Source: a phage. From it: DNA of 51,150 nt. The stretch lies in sequence record PX930853.1; one strand, written 5' to 3'. Position numbers and translations under genes: made by a program. Below the pieces are notes generated by a model. That model saw nothing but the letters and a program-made list of their open reading frames with translations, was not told where the DNA came from and did no database searches. This document shows positions 4,920 to 44,262 of this stretch, piece by piece; within the stretch, counting starts at the first letter, position 1, and each line of letters begins with the position of its first letter.

Positions 4920-5975
4920 TCATAGATACTGCCTGAATTGAGCACGAACCCAATCAGGAGTATCAAGATCAATTTCTGGTTGCCCGTTTGCATACGAAGG
5001 CCATTCATCTAACTGTTGGCAAACGTTGAACTTGTTGATCACGCTCATGTACTGGATACGACCGATCTTCAATTGCTCAATGTTCATGCGGAATGCGAGC
5101 GGCAAGTAAGGCTCTTTCTTCTCTTGAGCAAGCAATCTCACAATTACTGGCCTTTCCTCGTCTGGATACGCCTTTTTAAATAAATCATGCTGCAAAGCCA
5201 TTTTGAGATAATACCCGTGATTGTAAGCCAGGCGCTGGAAGTCAACCGGATTTGCGCTAACCGTTGTTTTATAGTCAGTGATAATCACAGCTTCTGGATA
5301 GATGACTTCTTCATAAATCGGTCGGCCTTTTTCGTCGTAACCGTTAATGATTGTGGCCTTTACATCCTTGTTTACGTCAACGTGATCAAGGCGCACTTTA
5401 ACTTTTACGCCATTGATGATCCCGAATATTGACATTTCACGCTGCGCGGTTGGGCTGTTCATGCAAGCGTTATGCTCCGGTATGGCCTCAAGTACGCGCC
5501 GCATCGCTACACAGGCATCATAATCTTTAGCGTCTATTAACTGCACTCCGTCCGCTGCGGCCTGGCATTCTGCCATCATTTCGATAAGCCACCACACATT
5601 GAGATCCTCGCCGCACTTGTACAGCATTTCCAGTAATTCAGGGTATTGTTTACCCGTCGTACCTTTCAGTCCAAAAGATTTCAGCTTTGATGCTAACGCC
5701 GTTTGACTAGTGATCAGATCTTTAAAATCATCCTGCGACGGTGCGCGGCGATATGTTTTTTCGAATAACTCCTTGCTTTCAAAATTGGTATGCGACTGCG
5801 TACCGAAAACAAGTGCCTTAGTTTCCTGGCGAGGCTTGTACTTCCAGTACGCCGGGCAAGTGCTGTAAATCTCCGCCAGGCTGGAACCGCTGACGTATTC
5901 AGCCGTCCACGCGTTAGGATCATGATAAAGCTCATTGCTCATTTCTTCGCTAGTATAGGCGTTAAAATCACTCAT
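4920..5975 (-). CDS. recombination exonuclease, PD-(D/E)XK type (RecE/exonuclease VIII-like), putative
   Basis: 351-aa ORF with GAGGAG RBS; D...ITDYKTT nuclease-like motif; first gene of exo-erf-ssb module. Confidence 0.6.
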   Translation of the reverse strand: MSDFNAYTSEEMSNELYHDPNAWTAEYVSGSSLAEIYSTCPAYWKYKPRQETKALVFGTQSHTNFESKELFEKTYRRAPSQDDFKDLITSQTALASKLKSFGLKGTTGKQYPELLEMLYKCGEDLNVWWLIEMMAECQAAADGVQLIDAKDYDACVAMRRVLEAIPEHNACMNSPTAQREMSIFGIINGVKVKVRLDHVDVNKDVKATIINGYDEKGRPIYEEVIYPEAVIITDYKTTVSANPVDFQRLAYNHGYYLKMALQHDLFKKAYPDEERPVIVRLLAQEKKEPYLPLAFRMNIEQLKIGRIQYMSVINKFNVCQQLDEWPSYANGQPEIDLDTPDWVRAQFRQYL

Positions 5976-6164
5976 CTTTAATGCTCCTCGTTGCTTTGTG
6001 TGTGCATTGTAGCCATTTGGTTGATTTAGTCAATAGTTGTTTTGTTTTTTTTCTGTTTTCTAAACGTTCTCAGATGGCAATAAAACAAATTTGACGAGTA
6101 AGTTAATGATTAATATGTGTTATTTTTCTTGTTCCTCTGTTCTCTCAGATACGCCGGATTATAT

Positions 6165-6335
6165 ACATACACATGAATGATGGCACATACAGATACACAG
6201 AAAGAAAAATCACCACAAACAACCAAAACCACAAGAAACACAGATAACAAGAAAAAACAAATATACATACATAAATAAATAAACTATTGATTTTATATGT
6301 ATATATCTATTTTATTAATTATTTATTGTTCTTAT
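6165..6335. repeat. AC/AT-rich non-coding repeat, copy A (homologous to 35615..35775)
   Basis: Shared blocks AGATACACA, A(C)CA(A)GATAACAA, ATACATA(C/T)ATAAATAAATAA in same order and orientation in both copies. Confidence 0.6.
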
Positions 6336-6404
6336 GTTGGCTAAAATTTGTGCTAAATTTACGCCGTCTTAATTCCGATAACACCGGAAAACAAAAAATA
6401 ACAA

Positions 6405-6424
6405 GTAGCACTTTTTGCTAAACG
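6405..6424 (+). promoter_or_regulatory. conserved intergenic box (TTGCTA variant), ~55 bp upstream of lipoprotein gene
   Basis: AGTAGCACTTTTTGCTAAAC; TATAGT hexamer ~21 nt downstream. Confidence 0.35.
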
Positions 6425-6477
6425 CGCTCCTTAAAATCGTGTATAGTTGAACCAACAACAACAAAGGAGATGAAAAG

Positions 6478-6705
6478 ATGAAAAAGTTAATTGCCGTTTT
6501 AATCGCAGCCGTTGCGCTGACTGGTTGCGCAAATATGCCTAAACGTGAATGTACGGCTATTTATGAAAATAGCGGAATGCAGTATTCAGTTGCTATCTTT
6601 GGGGCAAAACGAGTTGGCGATCGCACTCTTGTTAAGGCTGGCTATCCATTTAATTTTCAGTGGGTAAGCATTGATAACTTTAAAAACGCTGATTGCAGTC
6701 TGTAA
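6478..6705 (+). CDS. lipoprotein, Cor-like superinfection-exclusion candidate
   Basis: Signal peptide with lipobox LTGC (MKKLIAVLIAAVALTGC); AGGAG RBS; isolated plus-strand gene next to tail genes, as for cor in FhuA-dependent phages. Confidence 0.5.
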   Translation: MKKLIAVLIAAVALTGCANMPKRECTAIYENSGMQYSVAIFGAKRVGDRTLVKAGYPFNFQWVSIDNFKNADCSL

Positions 6706-6715
6706 ATAAAAACAA

Positions 6716-6737
6716 AGGGGCAAAAGCCCCTTTTTTA
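6716..6737. terminator. bidirectional rho-independent terminator
   Basis: AGGGGC-AAAA-GCCCCT stem with flanking A-run and T6. Confidence 0.6.
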
Positions 6738-6738
6738 A

Positions 6739-7377
6739 TTAGTCGTAAATATCAGTCTTTATTGCAATTATTGAATTTCCGTTGTTTGTTATAGATCCTG
6801 TTCCTGGAGTTGTCCTTGCCGCACTTATCCTTGTGCTTGAACCATTATACCTGCACGATGTGTATATGTCAGACGCACCCATACCTATAACCGCACCAAG
6901 CCTTGATGGGCAAACAGCATAAGAACCAGATAATGTCTGATCTATATTCGTCCCACCAGAAGATCCAGGAGTACCAATTGTTACAAGATCTGTTAGTACC
7001 CTGCTCTCATTAGTTAAAACCAACTTTCCGCTTTCATCCCATATTGCCATACCATATTTGGGTAGAGTTTGAGGGAAGATAGCAAATATATAAACAGTCA
7101 TTGTAAATGATTGACCGTATGGATTGCCTCCGTTTACATAAATGTTGCCACCGTTCCTGTAAGCTATTAATGCGGTTGGCTGCTGTGTGTTTGTTGTTTT
7201 TATAAATGCCATACATGGATAAGATTGATTTAATGGTATATTTGCGCTTGCGCTATGATAGGCAGAAGTGCCAGAAGATGAATAAGTGTACTTGCCATAT
7301 AAGCAAAATGGCGTTGATTTTGGTGTGATAAATGGATTCCCATTTGATAAAGATAACATTGCTCCATATTCAGCCAT
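6739..7377 (-). CDS. hypothetical tail-associated protein, MAEYG paralog 1
   Basis: ORF starting MAEYGAMLSLS with GAGAGGG RBS; internal YGMAIWDESGK repeats N-terminal motif of upstream paralog. Confidence 0.5.
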   Translation of the reverse strand: MAEYGAMLSLSNGNPFITPKSTPFCLYGKYTYSSSGTSAYHSASANIPLNQSYPCMAFIKTTNTQQPTALIAYRNGGNIYVNGGNPYGQSFTMTVYIFAIFPQTLPKYGMAIWDESGKLVLTNESRVLTDLVTIGTPGSSGGTNIDQTLSGSYAVCPSRLGAVIGMGASDIYTSCRYNGSSTRISAARTTPGTGSITNNGNSIIAIKTDIYD

Positions 7378-7378
7378 T

Positions 7379-7684
7379 TTAAGCCCTCTCAAGAAAAACA
7401 ACTAACTCGCACTTTGAAGAAGAATACCTATTTGGACCAACTGACGATGTAGGACTAATTCTTATTGTATTTCCAGATGCCACTATTTCCCTTCCAACTC
7501 CTCTAGCGCCTTCATCAAGTGAAACAACATACCCAACCTTAAAACCACTTGGAATGTTAAAACTCCACGATCCGCTTGTCTGACCAGCGGAAAGACTGAT
7601 AACACCAACAACTGAAACCGGCTTAATGCCGTAGTTATTATATTTTCCGTTTGCATCCCAAGTTGAGATACCATATTCAGCCAT
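7379..7684 (-). CDS. hypothetical tail-associated protein, MAEYG paralog 2
   Basis: ORF starting MAEYGISTWDANGK with GGAGG RBS; track ORF over-extended. Confidence 0.5.
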   Translation of the reverse strand: MAEYGISTWDANGKYNNYGIKPVSVVGVISLSAGQTSGSWSFNIPSGFKVGYVVSLDEGARGVGREIVASGNTIRISPTSSVGPNRYSSSKCELVVFLERA

Positions 7685-7727
7685 TATTAAACCTCCATAA
7701 ATGCGGGGCAAGCGCCCCGCTTTGATT

Positions 7728-10700
7728 TTACCACGTACCAGTAAGCCTACCAATCTGAACACGCAAGCTCCCGTTTGCGTCCCGTACACTTATCGTTTCG
7801 TTGGTCAACTTCATGGCCCCTTCTCCAGATGTAGAACCATAGTTCTCAAATCTGCCGTTTTTATCCAGCCTCCACCCCTGCTGATTAGCAACAAAGTTAT
7901 TCGACTGAATATAATTACCAATCATGGCATTTGTGATGGAACCGTTTTTCACTAGCAGGCTGTTAATGAAAACCTGGTTGTTTTCAACAACGAAAGGCAA
8001 AGTAAACGTACCTCCAGTAGAGCTAGTCATGATCGCGAACCTGTTAGCATCGAACAAGATTTGCGAGATCAGGCCTTGAGAAGATTGCGACAACTGCATG
8101 ATCATGCCTGCGCTGTACTTCTGCCCCTTGTAAGTAAGGCCCAATTTCATAGCGTACTTAGCGCCAACCGAATCAACGTTAGCCCACGAATCAAGTTTTT
8201 CGGCTAGTGCTGATTCAACGTCTCCGAATTTGGCTGTTAAAGCCTGGTCAGCCTGAACCCTTGCCTCTGTCTCATTAGCGATAGCCTGTCTTACTTCTGA
8301 TATGTTCGCCTCAACATCAACCTTGATTGCATCGTTAAGGTCATTAATCTCTTTCGAAAACTTAGCGTCAAGCTGCTGAACGGCTTGCGCACGCGCTTCT
8401 GATTCATTGGTAATGGTTTGCCTTACCTCGCCAATGCTTGCAGCCGTATCTCGTTTTACGCCGTCTATTTCCTTCGTAAATTTAGAATCAAGTTGCTGCA
8501 CTTGAGTAGCTCGCGTCTCTGATTCGTTGGCAATCGCTTCCTGAACGGTTTTGATACTTGAAACTATATCTTCATCAATTGACGCCTTTAACTCTTCGAT
8601 TTGAGTTACTCGCGCCTCCGTTTCGGTAGCAATAAGCTCCAGTGCATGACCATATTCAGCCTTACGCTTTCCGTTTTGTACTCGCGTCCACTTCACATCA
8701 GCATCGTTTGCCAATGCGTTCTGGATGATTGATTGCGCCTGGTCTTTGATTTTGTTGGCACTGTCTATGGCGTTCTCTTTGATTTCTTGACCAGCTTCGG
8801 TATCAAAAATCTTGTCCAGAATGTCGCCTAAAACAGAGTCAACATCATCTGACGCCATGCCACGAACAAAGTCAGTCCAGCCGGAAACGTTGCCTATTCT
8901 GTCAACGCTGCGGATTCTATACCATACAACTTGCCCCGCTGGTAACGTGCCATGCCAATACTCATATTGAGGATACGGGATCAGCGTAAGCAAACTTGAG
9001 TTTTCCACCGTTCCATCTGGCGATTGGTGAAGCTCGATGTAAGCCGTATCTCCTGACCCTTCCGGCATACCCCATTTGACACGAATGCCAAAAACTTCAT
9101 TATCAGAAGCTGTAAGATTAATCGGCGCTCCTGGCTCGCCAACTTTACCTGTCAGGGTTGCGGTTGCAATCTTTGACCACGGGGAAGTGTTACCGCTTGC
9201 AGAAACAGATCTAACCCTTACTTGGTAGTTACCAGAATAAATTCCTTCTACCTCTATCTCTTTGTTAGCTGTCTGCGGTGTATTCAGCCAGTTGCCATCA
9301 CCTTTTCGCCATTGCATTTCATACAATGACGCATAAGGCACTTTTTCCCATGACACAACCATAGTTTCAACGCTGACACCCTGCACGACGCGAGAATAAG
9401 ATGAGATCTGCACGTTCTCAGGCGCTGCCATCACGTCAGGCTGAACAATTGAAGTTGGCCTGTCATCAATGTTTACTCCATAATCAATCTCGTCGTATTT
9501 GTTCGGATCGTACTCTACAGCCGTGATTGAATAGGTAAACTCGTTTTCGTCATCACCCTTGCTGATAGTTGTCACAACGTATTGCTGCAACGCAAGGTCA
9601 GTACGGTCAATCGCAAAAACGGTATCAGGCTTAACATCAAAACCAAATCCAATATTTAACTCAATGGTTTTTCCGTCTGCGCTAACCTTTGAGATCGTGC
9701 GCTTAACTGGCTTACCGTCCGGCTTGTTGATGATAATAAAATCACCAGGACGAGCATCAACCTTAAACGGAACGAAAACCTGCAATCCTGAAACTTCCAT
9801 CACTCGGCCCGATAGGTTTAACGTTAGGTTGCTGCTCTGAAAATTATCAGCGATAGCAATCACATCACCTATTGATGGAATCATCCCCTCCAGTCCAGTA
9901 GCAAAGTTTACAGTAGTGCTTCTAAGGTTTGTTTTCAAAACCCACCGACCGCGACGATTCGCTTCGCTCCTGCGTGTACACCCGATCGCTGTAATGCTTG
10001 TTGGATTGTATCCAAATCGTAATGCCGCCTCAGTATCAAAAACCCCCTCTACGTCCTGTTGATACATGTTTTGTTCGTCGTCAAACGTCACGTTACACTG
10101 CGTGTACATGCTTTTTTCGCTTGCGGTTGTGTACTGAAAATCACCGTTGATGACGTTTTCATTAGTAAACACGTATGATGGATCGCGCGGCTTATCAATC
10201 ACGATTGATAAGCTCTCACCATTCCAAAAGCTCATTCCGCGAAAGATTGAGCAAATGTCACGGATTAGCTGATAAGCCTCAACTTGATTCTGAATCACAA
10301 CATCGCATAGGTAGCGAGGCTCTGTACCGCCTTTACCGTCTGGAACTTTCTGATCACAGTAAACTCCTGCCTCATATAAGCTCCACTTGTCGATCTGTAT
10401 TCCTAGCTCTCGCTGGTCAAGCCCATAACGCTGATTCGTTACCAGATCATAAAGCACCCAAGCAGGATTATTTGACCACGCTTTTTTAAAAGTACCATCC
10501 CATGACCCGTGATATTCTCTTGATATTGGATCGTAGTTGCTTGGCACGTTAATAATCTTCCATTTCTTTTTTATAGAAATGTTAGGGATTTGCGTAGGAA
10601 ACAATTCGCTGTCAAATTCTACGAATACAAGGCCAGTCAGAGGATAACGGAATTTTGCATCCACAACCTCAGCGTAACTTTGCAGTTTGATTTTATCAGT

Positions 10701-11306
10701 CACCTTTGAAGATGTGCTGTCTGGCGTAACTCGTCGAACGCGGAACAATACGCGATCATTGAACTTCGGCAAGTCGATACGGCGACTGCGGTCGTAACCT
10801 GTTCTCGTTTTACCGTTAATGGTGTCCAGCAAAACTTCTTTGTAAGATTCGCCATCAACCGCCATATCAACGGCATATGTGACACTAACACCTACCAGAT
10901 CTCCGTTATCCTCCTGCTTTATGCCAGTTGGCATCAGAATCTTGATTCTGATTGCGGAAAGATTTTTGTTTGTTACAGAGATAATATATGGATTGTCTGC
11001 TGTAATATCTCGCGAAACTGTCACCTCGCTTGATGTGTCAGTAAACCCCTGGATGTAATCTTGCGTCTGTGTGCCTGGTCTATATTCAGCCATTACCCCC
11101 TCATAGTTAACAGTGCCATCGCTGGCAATAACCGGAACATCATCAAGATAAAGATCACGCAACGTGAAATCTGGATCGCACTCGCCATCAGATACAGCCA
11201 GCAAAACTTTAATCTTGTTTATCGAGATCAGGTTATCTTCCATCTCTTTTGGCACGTATGGCTTTTTGCTTCCGCCCTTACTGCCGCTTATCATATATTT
11301 AGCCAT
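7728..11306 (-). CDS. tail tip / central tail fiber protein (lambda J-like host specificity protein)
   Basis: ~1190-aa ORF downstream of tail assembly I-K-L-M genes; N-terminus SGSKGG...KPYVP...DNLISINKIKVLLAVSDGE resembles J-family N-termini. Confidence 0.8.
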   Translation of the reverse strand: MAKYMISGSKGGSKKPYVPKEMEDNLISINKIKVLLAVSDGECDPDFTLRDLYLDDVPVIASDGTVNYEGVMAEYRPGTQTQDYIQGFTDTSSEVTVSRDITADNPYIISVTNKNLSAIRIKILMPTGIKQEDNGDLVGVSVTYAVDMAVDGESYKEVLLDTINGKTRTGYDRSRRIDLPKFNDRVLFRVRRVTPDSTSSKVTDKIKLQSYAEVVDAKFRYPLTGLVFVEFDSELFPTQIPNISIKKKWKIINVPSNYDPISREYHGSWDGTFKKAWSNNPAWVLYDLVTNQRYGLDQRELGIQIDKWSLYEAGVYCDQKVPDGKGGTEPRYLCDVVIQNQVEAYQLIRDICSIFRGMSFWNGESLSIVIDKPRDPSYVFTNENVINGDFQYTTASEKSMYTQCNVTFDDEQNMYQQDVEGVFDTEAALRFGYNPTSITAIGCTRRSEANRRGRWVLKTNLRSTTVNFATGLEGMIPSIGDVIAIADNFQSSNLTLNLSGRVMEVSGLQVFVPFKVDARPGDFIIINKPDGKPVKRTISKVSADGKTIELNIGFGFDVKPDTVFAIDRTDLALQQYVVTTISKGDDENEFTYSITAVEYDPNKYDEIDYGVNIDDRPTSIVQPDVMAAPENVQISSYSRVVQGVSVETMVVSWEKVPYASLYEMQWRKGDGNWLNTPQTANKEIEVEGIYSGNYQVRVRSVSASGNTSPWSKIATATLTGKVGEPGAPINLTASDNEVFGIRVKWGMPEGSGDTAYIELHQSPDGTVENSSLLTLIPYPQYEYWHGTLPAGQVVWYRIRSVDRIGNVSGWTDFVRGMASDDVDSVLGDILDKIFDTEAGQEIKENAIDSANKIKDQAQSIIQNALANDADVKWTRVQNGKRKAEYGHALELIATETEARVTQIEELKASIDEDIVSSIKTVQEAIANESETRATQVQQLDSKFTKEIDGVKRDTAASIGEVRQTITNESEARAQAVQQLDAKFSKEINDLNDAIKVDVEANISEVRQAIANETEARVQADQALTAKFGDVESALAEKLDSWANVDSVGAKYAMKLGLTYKGQKYSAGMIMQLSQSSQGLISQILFDANRFAIMTSSTGGTFTLPFVVENNQVFINSLLVKNGSITNAMIGNYIQSNNFVANQQGWRLDKNGRFENYGSTSGEGAMKLTNETISVRDANGSLRVQIGRLTGTW

Positions 11307-17777: not shown

Positions 17778-17797
17778 ATAGCACTTTTTGTTAAAAG
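17778..17797 (+). promoter_or_regulatory. conserved intergenic box, oriented opposite to flanking late genes
   Basis: ATAGCACTTTTTGTTAAAAG; TAGATT hexamer ~22 nt downstream; faces the 3' end of the major tail gene. Confidence 0.3.
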
Positions 17798-17837
17798 TGG
17801 AATTGATTTATTTGATAGATTGATTTTACAGGAATGA

Positions 17838-17862
17838 AAAAAGGGGCGCAACGCCCCTTGTT
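17838..17862. terminator. bidirectional terminator after major tail protein gene
   Basis: AGGGGCG-CAA-CGCCCCT stem with A6 upstream and TTGTTTT downstream. Confidence 0.6.
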
Positions 17863-21529: not shown

Positions 21530-21550
21530 GATAGCACTTTTTGTTAAACG
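21530..21550 (+). promoter_or_regulatory. conserved intergenic box, oriented opposite to flanking late genes
   Basis: GATAGCACTTTTTGTTAAACG between decoration-like gene stop and capsid gene start. Confidence 0.3.
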
Positions 21551-21573
21551 TGCAATGTTTTTTATGCTACTAG

Positions 21574-34664: not shown

Positions 34665-34686
34665 GTTTTAACAAAAAGTGCTATTT
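34665..34686 (-). promoter_or_regulatory. conserved intergenic box (minus orientation)
   Basis: Reverse complement AAATAGCACTTTTTGTTAAAAC followed by GCCAGGC-GCAAA-GCCTGGC dyad and CATAAT. Confidence 0.4.
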
Positions 34687-34953
34687 TGTCTCGACGGTCA
34701 TATGTTCTGTCTTCGTGCCTTTGCCGTTGCTTTTCGACACTTCCCAGCTAGTCGTTCCCTTGCAGTTGGTGAAGTAAACAGTGCGACCGTCATAGAATCG
34801 GTAAACAGTGCAACCATCGGCGGTGAATAGCTCCCTTACGCTGTAGTCATCGCCAGGGTTAGCCATCTGCACATTGCCAACATGCGCGCCATCCTCTTTG
34901 CATCCGGTCAGGAATGCCATTGCCACCAAAACACCGATTAACGCCTTTTTCAT
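34681..34953 (-). CDS. lipoprotein (second lipobox protein), function unknown
   Basis: MKKALIGVLVAMAFLTGC signal peptide with lipobox. Confidence 0.6.
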   Translation of the reverse strand: MKKALIGVLVAMAFLTGCKEDGAHVGNVQMANPGDDYSVRELFTADGCTVYRFYDGRTVYFTNCKGTTSWEVSKSNGKGTKTEHMTVETK

Positions 34954-35414
34954 TGCTCATCCTCCAGGAAAGTTTTTTTGATCATCGCGTGAAAGTCAGC
35001 GACGGCCTTTGATAATGTTTCATACTCTTCCGGAGCATAGTTTGCCAGGTTGGGTGACATATCGATGATCGCCTCTGCAACTTTGCGCTTGGCCTGGCGT
35101 ACTGCCCTTTCCAATGCCTCTTTGTTGTAAACCTTGCGACGGCCTTCAACAATGCGCACCTCGTAGAAAGTGCTACCGAAGTTTTCATCTTCCGGCCCGT
35201 AAACGCCACGGGTAACGGATACGCGCCCCCGCTCGGCGACTTCTGGCACTCGACTCATGATCTGGCGAATGTAGGCCGCCGGATTGCTTGCCGACTTCTT
35301 GCCGAACATGTGGACCTGCAAATACGCGTCAGGAATATTGATCGTCTCTTCCTCGCCATTAGCCAGCATAATAGCGGCACGGCGCAGCGTGTCAGTGAAT
35401 GATTGCTCGCTCAT
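34950..35414 (-). CDS. hypothetical protein, first gene of leftward early operon
   Basis: ORF track; start moved to ATG preceded by AGGAGG. Confidence 0.5.
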   Translation of the reverse strand: MSEQSFTDTLRRAAIMLANGEEETINIPDAYLQVHMFGKKSASNPAAYIRQIMSRVPEVAERGRVSVTRGVYGPEDENFGSTFYEVRIVEGRRKVYNKEALERAVRQAKRKVAEAIIDMSPNLANYAPEEYETLSKAVADFHAMIKKTFLEDEQ

Positions 35415-35614
35415 TTCTGCCTCCTGGTTGTTAGGTGTGGGCATTATCAATAATGCTATTTAATGTGTCAACTGTTTTTTCTTGTTCCAGCGTGTTTTAT
35501 CAATTTTATATGGTGGCACAATAACAATATGGGCGTTATTTTTCCTTATAAATCAATGTTATCATTGCTTGTTATCGAAGTTTTCTCGCGGAAAGTGCCA
35601 TATAGATATATATG

Positions 35615-43143: not shown

Positions 43144-43177
43144 AAATAAAGGAGGCATTAAGCCTCCTTTTTCTTTT
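43142..43177. terminator. bidirectional rho-independent terminator between early-right and lysis clusters
   Basis: GGAGGC-ATTAA-GCCTCC stem with A-run upstream and T-run downstream. Confidence 0.6.
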
Positions 43178-43553
43178 CCCTCCAGTAAAGACAAATCAGC
43201 ACAATGAACACAACCACGCATATGATTATTGGATCGTACCATCTGCCGTTATTACCCTGCACGACCTGAATTTTGTCTGCCTTGATGGTATTGGCCTGAA
43301 TGGTTGATGTTGTGAAATCCTTCTTGCTGGACGTGTCCACCTTGTCAACCGCAGATTCCTTTATTGTGGTTTCCTGTTTTGTGCTGGCGTCCTGCTTTGC
43401 TGTAATGCCAACTGTCTGCTTCACGTTCTCCGCGCCAGCCTGTGCTGTTATTTCCGGCTTACTGCCGATTAATCCGGTCAGTGGCGTAACGCTTGAACAT
43501 CCAGACAAGATCACCGCCATTGCGATTGGTGTAAATAAAAATTTCTTCATCAT
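43158..43553 (-). CDS. unimolecular spanin (u-spanin): N-terminal lipoprotein signal plus C-terminal transmembrane helix
   Basis: [19 protein letters not shown] lipobox and C-terminal [16 protein letters not shown] followed by basic tail; directly after endolysin. Confidence 0.7.
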
Positions 43554-44041
43554 TTCAGATCCATTGTGCAATATTTGTATTCGACCTTGCGCCTGTTAAG
43601 TAAGCCTTTAGACTTCTCGCGCTTTCCTGTTTTGGGGTTATGGTAATACGTCCAACGATAAAGCTGATCGCAAGCCTCGTTTAATTTCCCCTGGTTGATG
43701 AGTTTCAGCATTGTTGAATTTCTGAAAGCTCCCACACCTGCATTGTAAGTGAATGAGTACATTGCTGCACGCATACTATCAGGAATGTCAACCTTAACTT
43801 GCTTGTCAACTTCCTTTTTAGCAACCTGGATATGCTTAGCCAACAAAGCATCACACTCTTTTTTAGTGTACGTTTTCCCCAGGATAACATCTGGTCCGGT
43901 GATTCCTGCGCAAACCGTCCATACTCCCGCAATATCTTTGTATGGCTTGTATCTTACCCCTTCGATCTCTTCAAGAAGTGGAGAAGTCAAGGCAACCGCA
44001 ACGCCAAAGGCCGCAGCCGCTACCTTGTTCTTTATGCTCAT
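43550..44041 (-). CDS. endolysin, lysozyme-like (T4/lambda R-type fold) with N-terminal signal-anchor-release-like segment
   Basis: E-x8-D-x5-T catalytic-type spacing ([22 protein letters not shown]); weakly hydrophobic Ala/Gly-rich N-terminus [17 protein letters not shown]. Confidence 0.8.
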
Positions 44042-44262
44042 TACTTGCCCCTGATCTCAATAGCTTTTTGAATATCACCTTTTTCGATCGCCTCGTGGAA
44101 TTTTTTACTATCACGCCAGCGAAGGTAAGCGCCCCATGCACCGAATGCAGCCATTAAAACAAAGCTGGCAATAGCAATGGTTAACTGCCCTGTAGCGGCG
44201 CTTGCGATAGATGAACCGCCAGATCCGGCGGTAGCTGCGTTAATAAAATCTTTCATTTTCAT
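44041..44262 (-). CDS. holin (pinholin-like, two predicted TM segments)
   Basis: 73 aa; Gly/Ala-rich first hydrophobic segment, second [23 protein letters not shown], charged C-terminus; GGAGA RBS. Confidence 0.65.

What the first reader, a model, noticed from the sequence alone, without database searches (positions are those of the whole stretch)
6478..6705. Two separate lipobox proteins: Cor-like gene near the tail genes and a second lipoprotein in the early region
The protein at 6478-6705 (MKKLIAVLIAAVALTGC...) is an isolated plus-strand gene with its own box and terminator, placed between the recombination and tail modules; this fits a Cor-type outer-membrane receptor-blocking lipoprotein. 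A second lipoprotein (34681-34953, MKKALIGVLVAMAFLTGC...) opens the leftward early region. Two lipoproteins may mean exclusion activities against two different receptors or phage groups, or one may act in lysis inhibition.
Basis: inference. Interest (0 to 1): 0.45.

Follow-up and report, generated by a model that had tools for sequence, protein, structure and literature searches.

The report
Cor exclusion lipoprotein plus unrelated DUF4884 lipoprotein
The first gene is an ordinary, already annotated Cor lipoprotein that T1-like phages use to shut their FhuA receptor against further infection, while the second is a widespread phage lipoprotein of unknown function (DUF4884) that is unrelated to Cor and not tied to receptor choice.

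Summary
Both ORFs exist at the stated coordinates and both carry a textbook lipoprotein signal (L-T-G-C). The window is a complete T1-like phage (Drexlerviridae, Warwickvirus-like backbone).

ORF 6478-6705 is Cor. It passes NCBIfam's curated "phage exclusion lipoprotein Cor" model (66.8 bits, cut-off 31) and PHROG 1119 (E 2e-28). It is 56% identical to T1 Cor and 81% to Cor of the FhuA-dependent BASEL phage PaulSarasin. Its best PDB match, by sequence and by fold, is T5 Llp bound to FhuA. It closes a FhuA-type host-recognition cassette (gpJ, 101-aa protein, 212-aa protein, convergent cor). It has its own promoter box and a shared bidirectional terminator.

ORF 34681-34953 is a DUF4884 lipoprotein. 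It is the second gene, not the first, of the leftward early operon. Its mature domain shows no similarity to Cor, Llp or Rtp45. An identical copy sits in phage tonnikala, which has a different receptor cassette, and homologues occur in FhuA-, BtuB- and LptD-dependent phages and in phages of other genera. So it is not a cognate receptor blocker, and its function is unknown.

A third lipoprotein, the u-spanin (43161-43553), fills the lysis role. Verdict: ordinary, already annotated; low interest.

The parts
6478..6705 (+). cor: 75-aa precursor of the Cor superinfection-exclusion lipoprotein. Signal peptide 1-16, lipobox L14-T15-G16-C17, mature-part cysteines C25 and C73, GYPF motif 55-58.
   Evidence: NCBIfam NF047972 'phage exclusion lipoprotein Cor' 66.8 bits vs cut-off 31; phrog_1119 E 1.8e-28; 56% identity to T1 Cor, 81% to PaulSarasin, 36% to phi80 Cor, with invariant residues; top PDB hit is Llp 8a60_B by sequence and by fold.
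6408..6447 (+). Promoter-like element of cor: a copy of the phage's repeated 19-nt box (6408-6426, one base shorter than the consensus) plus a TATAGT -10-like hexamer (6442-6447). The Shine-Dalgarno AAGGAG lies at 6464-6469.
   Evidence: Box family of 15 copies vs 0.12 expected; aligned copies all carry a -10-like hexamer about 16 nt downstream; sequence read.
6714..6733 (.). Bidirectional intrinsic terminator shared by cor (+) and the convergent tail-tip/RBP operon (-).
   Evidence: 8-bp stem with 5 GC pairs and T-runs on both strands. T1 has a terminator at the same place.
6739..7377 (-). 212-aa protein of the FhuA-type receptor-specificity cassette (annotated 'membrane associated protein'; homologue of T1 ST31 and N15 gp23).
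   Evidence: phrog_425 E 1.8e-69; 56% identity to T1 ST31, E 6e-74.
7379..7684 (-). 101-aa protein of the FhuA-type cassette (annotated 'outer membrane protein'; homologue of T1 ST32 and N15 gp22).
   Evidence: phrog_557 E 1.9e-30; 63% identity to T1 ST32, E 2e-44.
7728..11306 (-). J-like central tail fibre / tail tip protein, immediately upstream of the cassette.
   Evidence: ORF; 86% identity to the tonnikala tail fibre; annotated tail protein in relatives.
34681..34953 (-). 90-aa DUF4884 lipoprotein ('LP2'). Lipobox L15-T16-G17-C18, +2 residue Lys, conserved core 42-66 LFTADGCTVYRFYD...YFTNCKG with cysteines C48 and C64.
   Evidence: PF16225 33 bits vs cut-off 30, E 5e-8; phrog_6360; invariant core across 12 homologues; 1762 cluster representatives; lipobox present in at least 139 of 160 representatives.
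34950..35414 (-). 154-aa DUF7174 protein, the first gene of the leftward operon. Its stop overlaps the LP2 start (ATGA).
   Evidence: PF23796 E 5e-28; phrog_4841; sequence.
35443..35471 (-). Near-consensus sigma-70 promoter (TTGACA-17-GATAAT) for the DUF7174-LP2 pair.
   Evidence: 11 of 12 consensus matches. This is a pattern match only.
43161..43553 (-). Third lipoprotein: the unimolecular spanin (lipobox L-S-G-C plus a C-terminal transmembrane helix), next to the endolysin (43550-44041) and the holin (44041-44262).
   Evidence: phrog_1804 'Rz-like spanin' E 2.5e-47; sequence; lipobox scan.

Best explanation
The window is a complete T1-like lytic phage whose host-recognition module is of the FhuA type.

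Cor (6478-6705). [quoted passage not shown] This would protect the infected cell from superinfection and keep progeny from being wasted on debris. In this lytic phage cor is inverted relative to the tail operon and has its own promoter box, so it need not wait for late tail-gene transcription.
- Shown here: family membership, anatomy and cassette linkage.
- Inferred from family knowledge: FhuA binding and exclusion.

LP2 (34681-34953). It is an unrelated small lipoprotein of the large DUF4884 family, carried mainly by phages and prophages. It is expressed as the second gene of an operon behind a near-consensus host-type promoter. It consists of a tether of about 24 residues and a 45-residue beta-rich domain with two invariant cysteines that could form a disulfide. 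Its allele is independent of the receptor cassette and its core is conserved in phages of distant hosts. The most likely role is therefore an early periplasmic action on a conserved envelope component or on incoming phage machinery, not blockade of a particular receptor. This last step is inference only.

Lysis. The lipoprotein needed for lysis is a third gene, the u-spanin.
For: Cor:
- Curated NCBIfam equivalog passed, 66.8 vs 31 bits; PHROG 1119 E 1.8e-28.
- Full-length alignment with T1, PaulSarasin and phi80 Cor, invariant LTGC, C25, GYPF, VS and C73.
- 95-100% identical proteins are annotated Cor in RefSeq phages.
- The best PDB match by sequence (E 0.038, cysteine aligned) and by fold (prob 0.99, TM 0.47/0.56) is Llp in its FhuA complex.
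- The cassette partners are 63% and 56% identical to T1 ST32 and ST31.
- PaulSarasin carries the same three-gene cassette and was shown experimentally to need FhuA.
- BASEL phages with Cor plus both partners all use FhuA (PMC13164509).
- The Llp mechanism and the Llp-Cor relationship are described in PMC9586334 and in the preprint 10.64898/2026.03.26.714494.

LP2:
- Pfam DUF4884 above its gathering score.
- Invariant core and cysteines.
- 1762 representative clusters, almost all stand-alone proteins of 80-95 aa with a lipobox.
- Homologues lie in phage contigs and in an apparent Pseudomonas prophage early region.
- tonnikala has 100% identical LP2 but a different, inverted cassette with another lipoprotein. 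Ten other phages with LP2 of 92-98% identity (tonn, tonijn, swan01, XY3, SECphi27, JK16, JLBYU10, JLBYU16, MikeNSara, tuinn) carry that other lipoprotein too.
- Phages with 95-99% identical Cor have only 46-55% identical LP2.
- LP2 homologues occur in phages with experimentally determined FhuA, BtuB and LptD receptors.

Spanin.
Against: - No experiment on this phage's Cor exists. The Cor-Llp fold match is top-ranked but not statistically significant (Foldseek E 0.08), and the alignment behind the model was shallow (7 sequences).
- The literature notes that the molecular mechanism of Cor itself is not solved, and one study implicates other outer membrane proteins in exclusion (reference cited).
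- For LP2 nothing functional is known. The AlphaFold model is weak (pLDDT 62), fold searches are uninformative, and the promoter assignment is a consensus match only.
- Eleven of about 140 family representatives have Asp at +2, so outer-membrane sorting is not a family-wide rule.
Confidence: 0.8

Rival explanations
1. One reading: LP2 is a second receptor-blocking exclusion lipoprotein. It would shut a different outer-membrane receptor (for example BtuB, LamB or LptD) against other phage groups, giving the phage two exclusion specificities.
For: - It is a small, early-expressed lipoprotein whose two mature-part cysteines could form a disulfide. This is the same general format as Cor, Llp and Rtp45.
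- Allelic diversity within Drexlerviridae, with at least two types only about 46% identical, could reflect an arms race.
Against: - It is not adjacent to any receptor-binding gene.
- The core motif is nearly invariant in phages of Serratia, Pseudomonas, Xanthomonas and Bacteroidota. Their receptors differ, which argues for a conserved target.
- The known receptor-blocking lipoproteins compared here (Cor, Llp, Rtp45) are encoded next to their cognate RBP.
Confidence: 0.15
2. LP2 is a post-adsorption exclusion factor. It would be tethered in the periplasm and intercept incoming phage machinery (tape measure or ejection proteins, or a tail-associated peptidoglycan hydrolase). It would work like the Ltp lipoprotein of Streptococcus phage TP-J34 or like T4 Spackle, independently of the receptor.
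For: - Early promoter-proximal position.
- Periplasmic tether of constant length, 21-33 residues.
- Independence from the receptor cassette.
- Presence in lytic phages of several morphotypes and in prophage early regions.
- A periplasmic precedent exists: T4 Spackle (PMC7677548, listed). Ltp is recalled from my own knowledge, not from a tool.
Against: There is no sequence or fold similarity to Spackle or Ltp, and no PADLOC or NCBIfam exclusion model matches. The reading is purely circumstantial.
Confidence: 0.2
3. LP2 is a host-takeover or envelope-remodelling factor with no exclusion role. It would bind a conserved envelope machine or peptidoglycan to tune envelope integrity, lysis timing or vesiculation for the benefit of the infecting phage.
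For: - Extreme conservation of the 25-residue core across distant hosts.
- Translational coupling to another conserved early protein of unknown function, DUF7174.
- A weak per-repeat resemblance of the core to PQQ-type beta-propeller blades, the repeat class of the BamB lipoprotein. The BamB link is from my own knowledge.
Against: - The propeller-blade match is only about 5 bits per repeat and is inflated by identical repeats in designed proteins.
- The gene is absent from many Drexlerviridae. Only 119 phage records match, and T1 was not among the records listed, so it is accessory.
- It is not in the lysis cassette.
Confidence: 0.2
4. The ORF at 6478-6705 is a Cor homologue that has been retargeted. 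It would block a receptor other than FhuA, as some Cor/Llp-like proteins in BtuB-dependent phages are thought to do.
For: Cor-like proteins occur in BtuB-dependent Markadamsvirinae and in one Tempevirinae phage (PMC13164509). Identity to T1 Cor is only 56%.
Against: - The complete three-gene FhuA-type cassette is present, and it co-varies: all three proteins are 56-63% identical to T1's.
- The closest phage with an experimentally determined receptor, PaulSarasin (81% identical Cor), needs FhuA.
- JakobBernoulli, a Hanrivervirus like the phages whose Cor is 92-97% identical to this one, also uses FhuA.
Confidence: 0.05

Closest known systems
Cor of coliphage T1 (ST30) and of T1-like Tempevirinae (aalborv, Henu8, PaulSarasin)
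   Same: Same length (75 aa), same lipobox, same conserved cysteines and GYPF motif. Same position and inverted orientation between exonuclease VIII and the two cassette genes downstream of gpJ. Same terminator arrangement and the same ~500-bp AT-rich upstream spacer.
   Different: Only 56% identical to T1 Cor, but 92-100% identical to Hanrivervirus and SLUR29 proteins. Here the cassette sits on a Warwickvirus-like backbone. At least eleven of that backbone's relatives (tonnikala and others listed) carry a different cassette.
Cor of temperate lambdoid phages (phi80, N15, HK022, mEp167)
   Same: Homologous lipoprotein (33-36% identity, E 4e-6), linked to the same two cassette genes after gpJ. 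Cor of such prophages has been shown to inactivate FhuA and to exclude FhuA-dependent phages (literature cited).
   Different: In phi80, cor is co-directional with the tail genes. Here, as in T1, it is inverted and has its own promoter box.
Llp of phage T5 (PDB 8A60, FhuA-Llp complex)
   Same: Best PDB match of the Cor model and of the Cor sequence. Small lipoprotein with a disulfide that ties the termini (Llp C11-C58; the two mature-part cysteines of Cor lie at mature positions 9 and 57). Encoded next to the receptor-binding protein gene. Presumed identical mechanism: periplasmic binding to the FhuA plug and reverse allostery.
   Different: About 20% identity. The RBP families are unrelated (pb5 vs the T1-type cassette), and binding of Cor to FhuA has not been shown structurally.
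Rtp45 of phage Rtp (LptDE-Rtp45 cryo-EM, PDB 9RPS) and the tonnikala-type cassette lipoprotein
   Same: Same logic: a small periplasmic lipoprotein encoded in the receptor-specificity locus downstream of gpJ that blocks the phage's own receptor.
   Different: Different receptor and unrelated sequence. This shows that the locus, not the protein family, defines the function. LP2 lies outside this locus.
Pfam DUF4884 (PF16225) / PHROG 6360
   Same: LP2 meets the Pfam gathering score and carries the family's invariant core. Deposited relatives are already annotated 'DUF4884 domain-containing protein'.
   Different: No function has been described for any member. Only two papers in the searched library mention the name, both in passing.

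Membership tests
Cor exclusion lipoprotein (NCBIfam NF047972, PHROG 1119) | Sequence match above the curated family threshold over the full length | tested here: met
   NF047972 equivalog 66.8 bits vs cut-off 31, residues 1-73; phrog_1119 E 1.8e-28, residues 1-74.
Cor exclusion lipoprotein (NCBIfam NF047972, PHROG 1119) | SPase II signal peptide with a lipobox, and no Asp at +2 | tested here: met
   MKKLIAVLIAAVA-LTGC-A. Actual lipidation cannot be tested here.
Cor exclusion lipoprotein (NCBIfam NF047972, PHROG 1119) | Family-invariant residues: two cysteines near the mature N and C termini (the disulfide pair in Llp), the GYPF motif, and V-S | tested here: met
   C25, G55-Y56-P57-F58, V63-S64 and C73 are invariant with T1, PaulSarasin and phi80 Cor. 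C25 aligns with the Llp cysteine.
Cor exclusion lipoprotein (NCBIfam NF047972, PHROG 1119) | Linkage to the FhuA-type cassette (N15 gp22- and gp23-like genes) directly downstream of gpJ | tested here: met
   phrog_557 and phrog_425 proteins at 7379-7684 and 6739-7377, 63% and 56% identical to T1 ST32 and ST31.
Cor exclusion lipoprotein (NCBIfam NF047972, PHROG 1119) | Llp-like fold | tested here: inconclusive
   The top Foldseek PDB hit is 8a60_B (prob 0.99, TM 0.47/0.56), but E is 0.08 and Tudor/chromo-like small barrels score similarly.
Cor exclusion lipoprotein (NCBIfam NF047972, PHROG 1119) | Inactivates FhuA and excludes FhuA-dependent phages | not testable with these tools
   Needs plating and uptake assays. 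The nearest phage with an experimentally determined receptor (PaulSarasin, Cor 81% identical) requires FhuA.
DUF4884 (PF16225), tested for LP2 | Pfam match above the gathering score, and the conserved core DGC-x-VYRF...YFTNCKG | tested here: met
   33.0 bits vs 30. Nineteen invariant columns, including both cysteines.
DUF4884 (PF16225), tested for LP2 | Stand-alone small lipoprotein architecture | tested here: met
   Median length 88 aa. A lipobox was found upstream of the core in at least 139 of 160 representatives, with a tether of 21-33 residues.
Receptor-coupled exclusion lipoproteins (Cor/Llp/Rtp45 type), tested for LP2 | Sequence or profile similarity of the mature domain | tested here: not met
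   hhalign of the LP2 family against the Cor family aligns only the signal peptide and lipobox. LP2 has no Cor match in PHROGs, Pfam or NCBIfam. The PDB profile search does not return Llp or Rtp45.
Receptor-coupled exclusion lipoproteins (Cor/Llp/Rtp45 type), tested for LP2 | Fold similarity to Llp or Rtp45 | tested here: inconclusive
Receptor-coupled exclusion lipoproteins (Cor/Llp/Rtp45 type), tested for LP2 | Encoded next to the receptor-binding genes and co-varying with them | tested here: not met
   LP2 lies 27 kb from the cassette. LP2 is 100% identical in tonnikala, which has a different cassette. Phages with 95-99% identical Cor have only 46-55% identical LP2.
Spanins (lysis lipoproteins), tested for LP2 | Location in the lysis cassette, and either a C-terminal transmembrane helix (u-spanin) or embedding in or next to an i-spanin gene | tested here: not met
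   LP2 has no C-terminal hydrophobic segment and lies among early genes. A bona fide u-spanin is present at 43161-43553.

The most novel reading that the evidence does not exclude
DUF4884 proteins (about 1,760 clusters at 50% identity, nearly all stand-alone lipoproteins of about 88 aa, found in siphophages, myophages, jumbo phages and prophages of Proteobacteria and Bacteroidota) could be a so far unrecognised, widespread class of early phage periplasmic effectors. Such an effector would be a receptor-independent superinfection-exclusion or envelope-targeting factor acting on a target conserved across Gram-negative bacteria. This phage would then carry two mechanistically different envelope defences, Cor and LP2.
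Probability: 0.3. Interest if true: 0.55.

Novelty: already known. Interest (0 to 1): 0.18.

Why it matters
The Cor assignment lets one predict from sequence alone that this phage uses FhuA and will exclude T1, T5 and phi80-type phages. That is useful for choosing phage cocktails and for explaining cross-resistance. It adds nothing new to the biology of Cor.

The only open point is the DUF4884 lipoprotein. It is a very large, sharply conserved phage family without any known function, expressed early and exported to the periplasm. A cheap expression and plating experiment could show whether it is a new type of exclusion or envelope effector.

Tried and rejected
- LP2 as a Cor paralogue: rejected. 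The profile-profile alignment covers only the signal peptide.
- LP2 as a beta-propeller blade: the E of 6e-13 against the designed 'Cake' propellers comes from summing about 5 bits over nine identical repeats. No single repeat is significant. One natural relative, P0163, has five tandem half-motifs, but it looks like a repeat expansion and not a propeller.
- Longer homologues (187-289 aa) look like mis-called starts or fusions with an upstream ORF, because they keep an internal signal peptide and lipobox. They give no domain-fusion clue.
- PADLOC defence models: no match for Cor, LP2 or the DUF7174 protein.
- NCBIfam: nothing for LP2 beyond signal-peptide noise.
- Literature: searching 'DUF4884' returned two incidental mentions and no functional data. 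The Rtp genome paper (PMC1367250) is not held.
- Rfam: no family reaches its gathering score anywhere in the window.
- Standard sigma-70 promoter upstream of cor: none found by the consensus scan. The phage-specific box is there instead.

Full report
**What is in the sequence**

Each begins with a short basic n-region, a hydrophobic stretch and the lipobox L-T-G-C.

A scan of every possible start codon in six frames finds three such ORFs of at least 50 aa. Random sequences of the same dinucleotide make-up give 0.04 on average, and none of 100 reached three. The third is at 43161-43553 (-).

The window as a whole is a complete T1-like siphophage genome (Drexlerviridae, Tempevirinae). Its early region is 97-98% identical at the DNA level to Warwickvirus phages such as tonnikala and NorthRox.

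**The first gene is cor**

Sequence evidence:
- The 75-aa protein passes NCBI's curated equivalog model 'phage exclusion lipoprotein Cor' (NF047972, 66.8 bits against a cut-off of 31).
- It matches PHROG 1119 'Cor superinfection exclusion protein' over its full length (E 1.8e-28).
- It is 100% identical to a protein encoded in phage vB_Eco_SLUR29 and 92-99% identical to proteins annotated Cor in RefSeq Hanrivervirus genomes.
- It is 81% identical to the homologue in BASEL phage PaulSarasin, 56% to T1 Cor and 33-36% to Cor of phi80 and HK022.
- Aligned with T1, PaulSarasin and phi80 Cor, the lipobox, Cys25, the G-Y-P-F motif, V-S and Cys73 are invariant.

Structural evidence:
- An AlphaFold2 model of moderate quality (pLDDT about 89 over the mature domain) has the T5 exclusion lipoprotein Llp, in its crystal complex with FhuA (8A60 chain B), as its top Foldseek hit in the PDB (prob 0.99, TM 0.47/0.56, E 0.08).
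- The same chain is also the top phmmer hit (E 0.038), with the first mature-part cysteine aligned.
- Neither value is significant on its own. Both agree with published statements that Llp and Cor share about 20% identity, the disulfide and the fold (PMC9586334; preprint 10.64898/2026.03.26.714494; PMC13164509).

**Genomic anatomy around cor**

- cor is the only plus-strand gene between exonuclease VIII (4920-5975, -) and the tail-tip genes.
- Downstream of the J-like tail tip gene (7728-11306, -) lie a 101-aa gene (7379-7684) and a 212-aa gene (6739-7377). They are 63% and 56% identical to T1 ST32 and ST31 and belong to PHROGs 557 and 425.
- cor converges on these genes and shares a perfect bidirectional terminator with them (6714-6733).
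- The arrangement is the same in T1 and PaulSarasin. In phi80 the same three genes are co-directional with the tail genes.
- Upstream of cor is a ~500-bp AT-rich non-coding spacer (GC 0.25-0.33).
- Then comes a copy of a 19-nt box, GCACTTTTTGTTAAAAC(G/T)C. The box occurs 15 times in the window against 0.12 expected. Each copy is followed about 16 nt later by a -10-like hexamer; for cor this is TATAGT at 6442-6447.
- An AAGGAG lies 8 nt before the ATG.

**Which receptor**

Published comparative work matches the locus downstream of gpJ to the terminal receptor in Drexlerviridae (PMC8594841; preprint 10.64898/2026.04.02.716166). Among BASEL phages, those carrying Cor together with both partner proteins all use FhuA (PMC13164509). 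PaulSarasin carries the same three-gene cassette and is listed with FhuA as its experimentally determined receptor.

I therefore predict that this phage uses FhuA and that its Cor blocks FhuA. By analogy with Llp, Cor would bind the periplasmic face and plug of the transporter and cause extracellular loops to occlude the phage binding site. Family membership and linkage are shown here. Binding and exclusion are inferred.

**The second lipoprotein is something else**

Identity and expression:
- The 90-aa protein (LP2) meets the Pfam gathering score for DUF4884 (33 vs 30 bits) and matches PHROG 6360, which has no known function.
- It is not the first gene of the leftward early operon. A near-consensus TTGACA-17-GATAAT promoter at 35471-35443 precedes a 154-aa DUF7174 gene.
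- That gene's stop overlaps the LP2 start in ATGA, and a GGAGGA lies 8 nt upstream.
- A copy of the 19-nt box follows directly after the LP2 stop.

The family:
- Homologues share an almost invariant core, LFT-x-DGCTVYRFYD...YFTNCKG, with two invariant cysteines.
- A full HMM search of 1.8 billion cluster representatives finds 1,762 relatives (752 with E of 1e-10 or better). Nearly all are stand-alone proteins of 80-95 aa.
- At least 139 of 160 examined have a recognisable lipobox 21-33 residues upstream of the core.

Where they occur:
- many Drexlerviridae, Serratia myophages, Pseudomonas phage Dolphis and a Xanthomonas jumbo phage;
- a 124-kb phage contig and a 71-kb phage contig with queuosine genes;
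- Pseudomonas chromosomes, in what looks like a prophage early region;
- Bacteroidota MAGs.

**LP2 is not a Cor-type, receptor-coupled blocker**

- A profile-profile comparison with the Cor family aligns only the signal peptide and lipobox.
- LP2 lies 27 kb from the receptor cassette, and its allele is independent of that cassette.
- tonnikala encodes a 100% identical LP2 but has a different, inverted three-gene cassette (204 aa, 92 aa and an 89-aa lipoprotein). It has no homologue of Cor or its partners detectable by tblastn.
- That other lipoprotein is present at 94-100% identity in ten further phages whose LP2 is 92-98% identical to the window's: tonn, tonijn, swan01, XY3, SECphi27, JK16, JLBYU10, JLBYU16, MikeNSara and tuinn.
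- Conversely, phages with 95-99% identical Cor (JLBYU41, aalborv, Henu8, herni, G29-2) have LP2 homologues of only 46-55% identity.
- LP2 homologues occur in BASEL phages with experimentally assigned FhuA (JakobBernoulli), BtuB (FritzSarasin) and LptD (JeanPiccard) receptors.

The near-invariance of the core across phages of unrelated hosts points to a conserved target. That target could be an envelope machine, peptidoglycan or a component of incoming phages, not a particular E. coli receptor. Nothing more can be said without experiments. The two papers in the searched library that mention DUF4884 contain no functional data.

**The lysis lipoprotein**

The third lipobox protein (43161-43553) has a C-terminal transmembrane helix and matches the spanin PHROG 1804 (E 2.5e-47). 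It sits directly after the endolysin and holin genes, which makes it the T1-type unimolecular spanin.

**Novelty and verdict**

Cor is a textbook case and is already annotated as such in near-identical deposited genomes. LP2 is already annotated as 'DUF4884 domain-containing protein' in relatives. I rate the finding as already known, with low interest.

The one reading worth a small experiment is that DUF4884 proteins form a widespread, unstudied class of early periplasmic phage effectors. I give this about 0.3 probability.

Noticed in passing
window 6408, 17781, 21534, 36013, 37317, 40006, 40680, 42842 (+ strand) and 30387, 33000, 34218, 34681, 46097, 47168, 49657 (- strand; the coordinate is the first base of the box): A 19-nt box, GCACTTTTTGTTAAAAC(G/T)C, occurs 15 times (0.12 expected). 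Each copy is followed about 16 nt later by a -10-like hexamer. The distance from TTGTTA to the -10 hexamer is about 22 nt, too long for a standard sigma-70 promoter. This suggests a phage-specific promoter class or a regulator site upstream of a -10 element.
   Followed up: partly
window 17781-17859 (+) and 21534-21552 (+): Two copies of the box point against the direction of the structural genes. The one at 17781 is followed by a bidirectional terminator at 17841-17859, so a transcript of about 50 nt antisense to the major-tail/chaperone intergenic region is conceivable. No Rfam family matches.
   Followed up: partly
window 5976-6477: A ~500-bp non-coding, strongly AT-rich spacer (GC 0.25-0.33, against about 0.44 in the flanks) lies between exonuclease VIII and cor. 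A spacer of similar length is present in T1 and PaulSarasin.
   Followed up: no
window 6739-11306 compared with L019 40615-45233: Module swap. The backbone is Warwickvirus-like, but the cassette after gpJ is the FhuA type (98% nt identity to vB_Eco-B1.2, 87% to Hanrivervirus). tonnikala and at least ten related phages carry an inverted 204 + 92 + 89-aa cassette with a different Cys-flanked lipoprotein.
   Followed up: partly
window 34681-35414 compared with L019 15629-16365: LP2 sits at a mosaic junction. tonnikala's LP2 is 100% identical, but the translationally coupled upstream DUF7174 gene is only 27% identical. In other phages the similarity breaks on the opposite side of LP2.
   Followed up: no
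window 6470-6481: A four-codon mini-ORF (ATG AAA AGA TGA) starts immediately after the Shine-Dalgarno sequence and overlaps the cor start codon in another frame. Its significance is unknown.
   Followed up: no
P0163 (293 aa, metagenomic): One DUF4884 relative is a lipoprotein with five tandem copies of the LFEHEGCRxYRYEYYGW half-motif. This is the only multi-repeat architecture among the top 150 hits.
   Followed up: no
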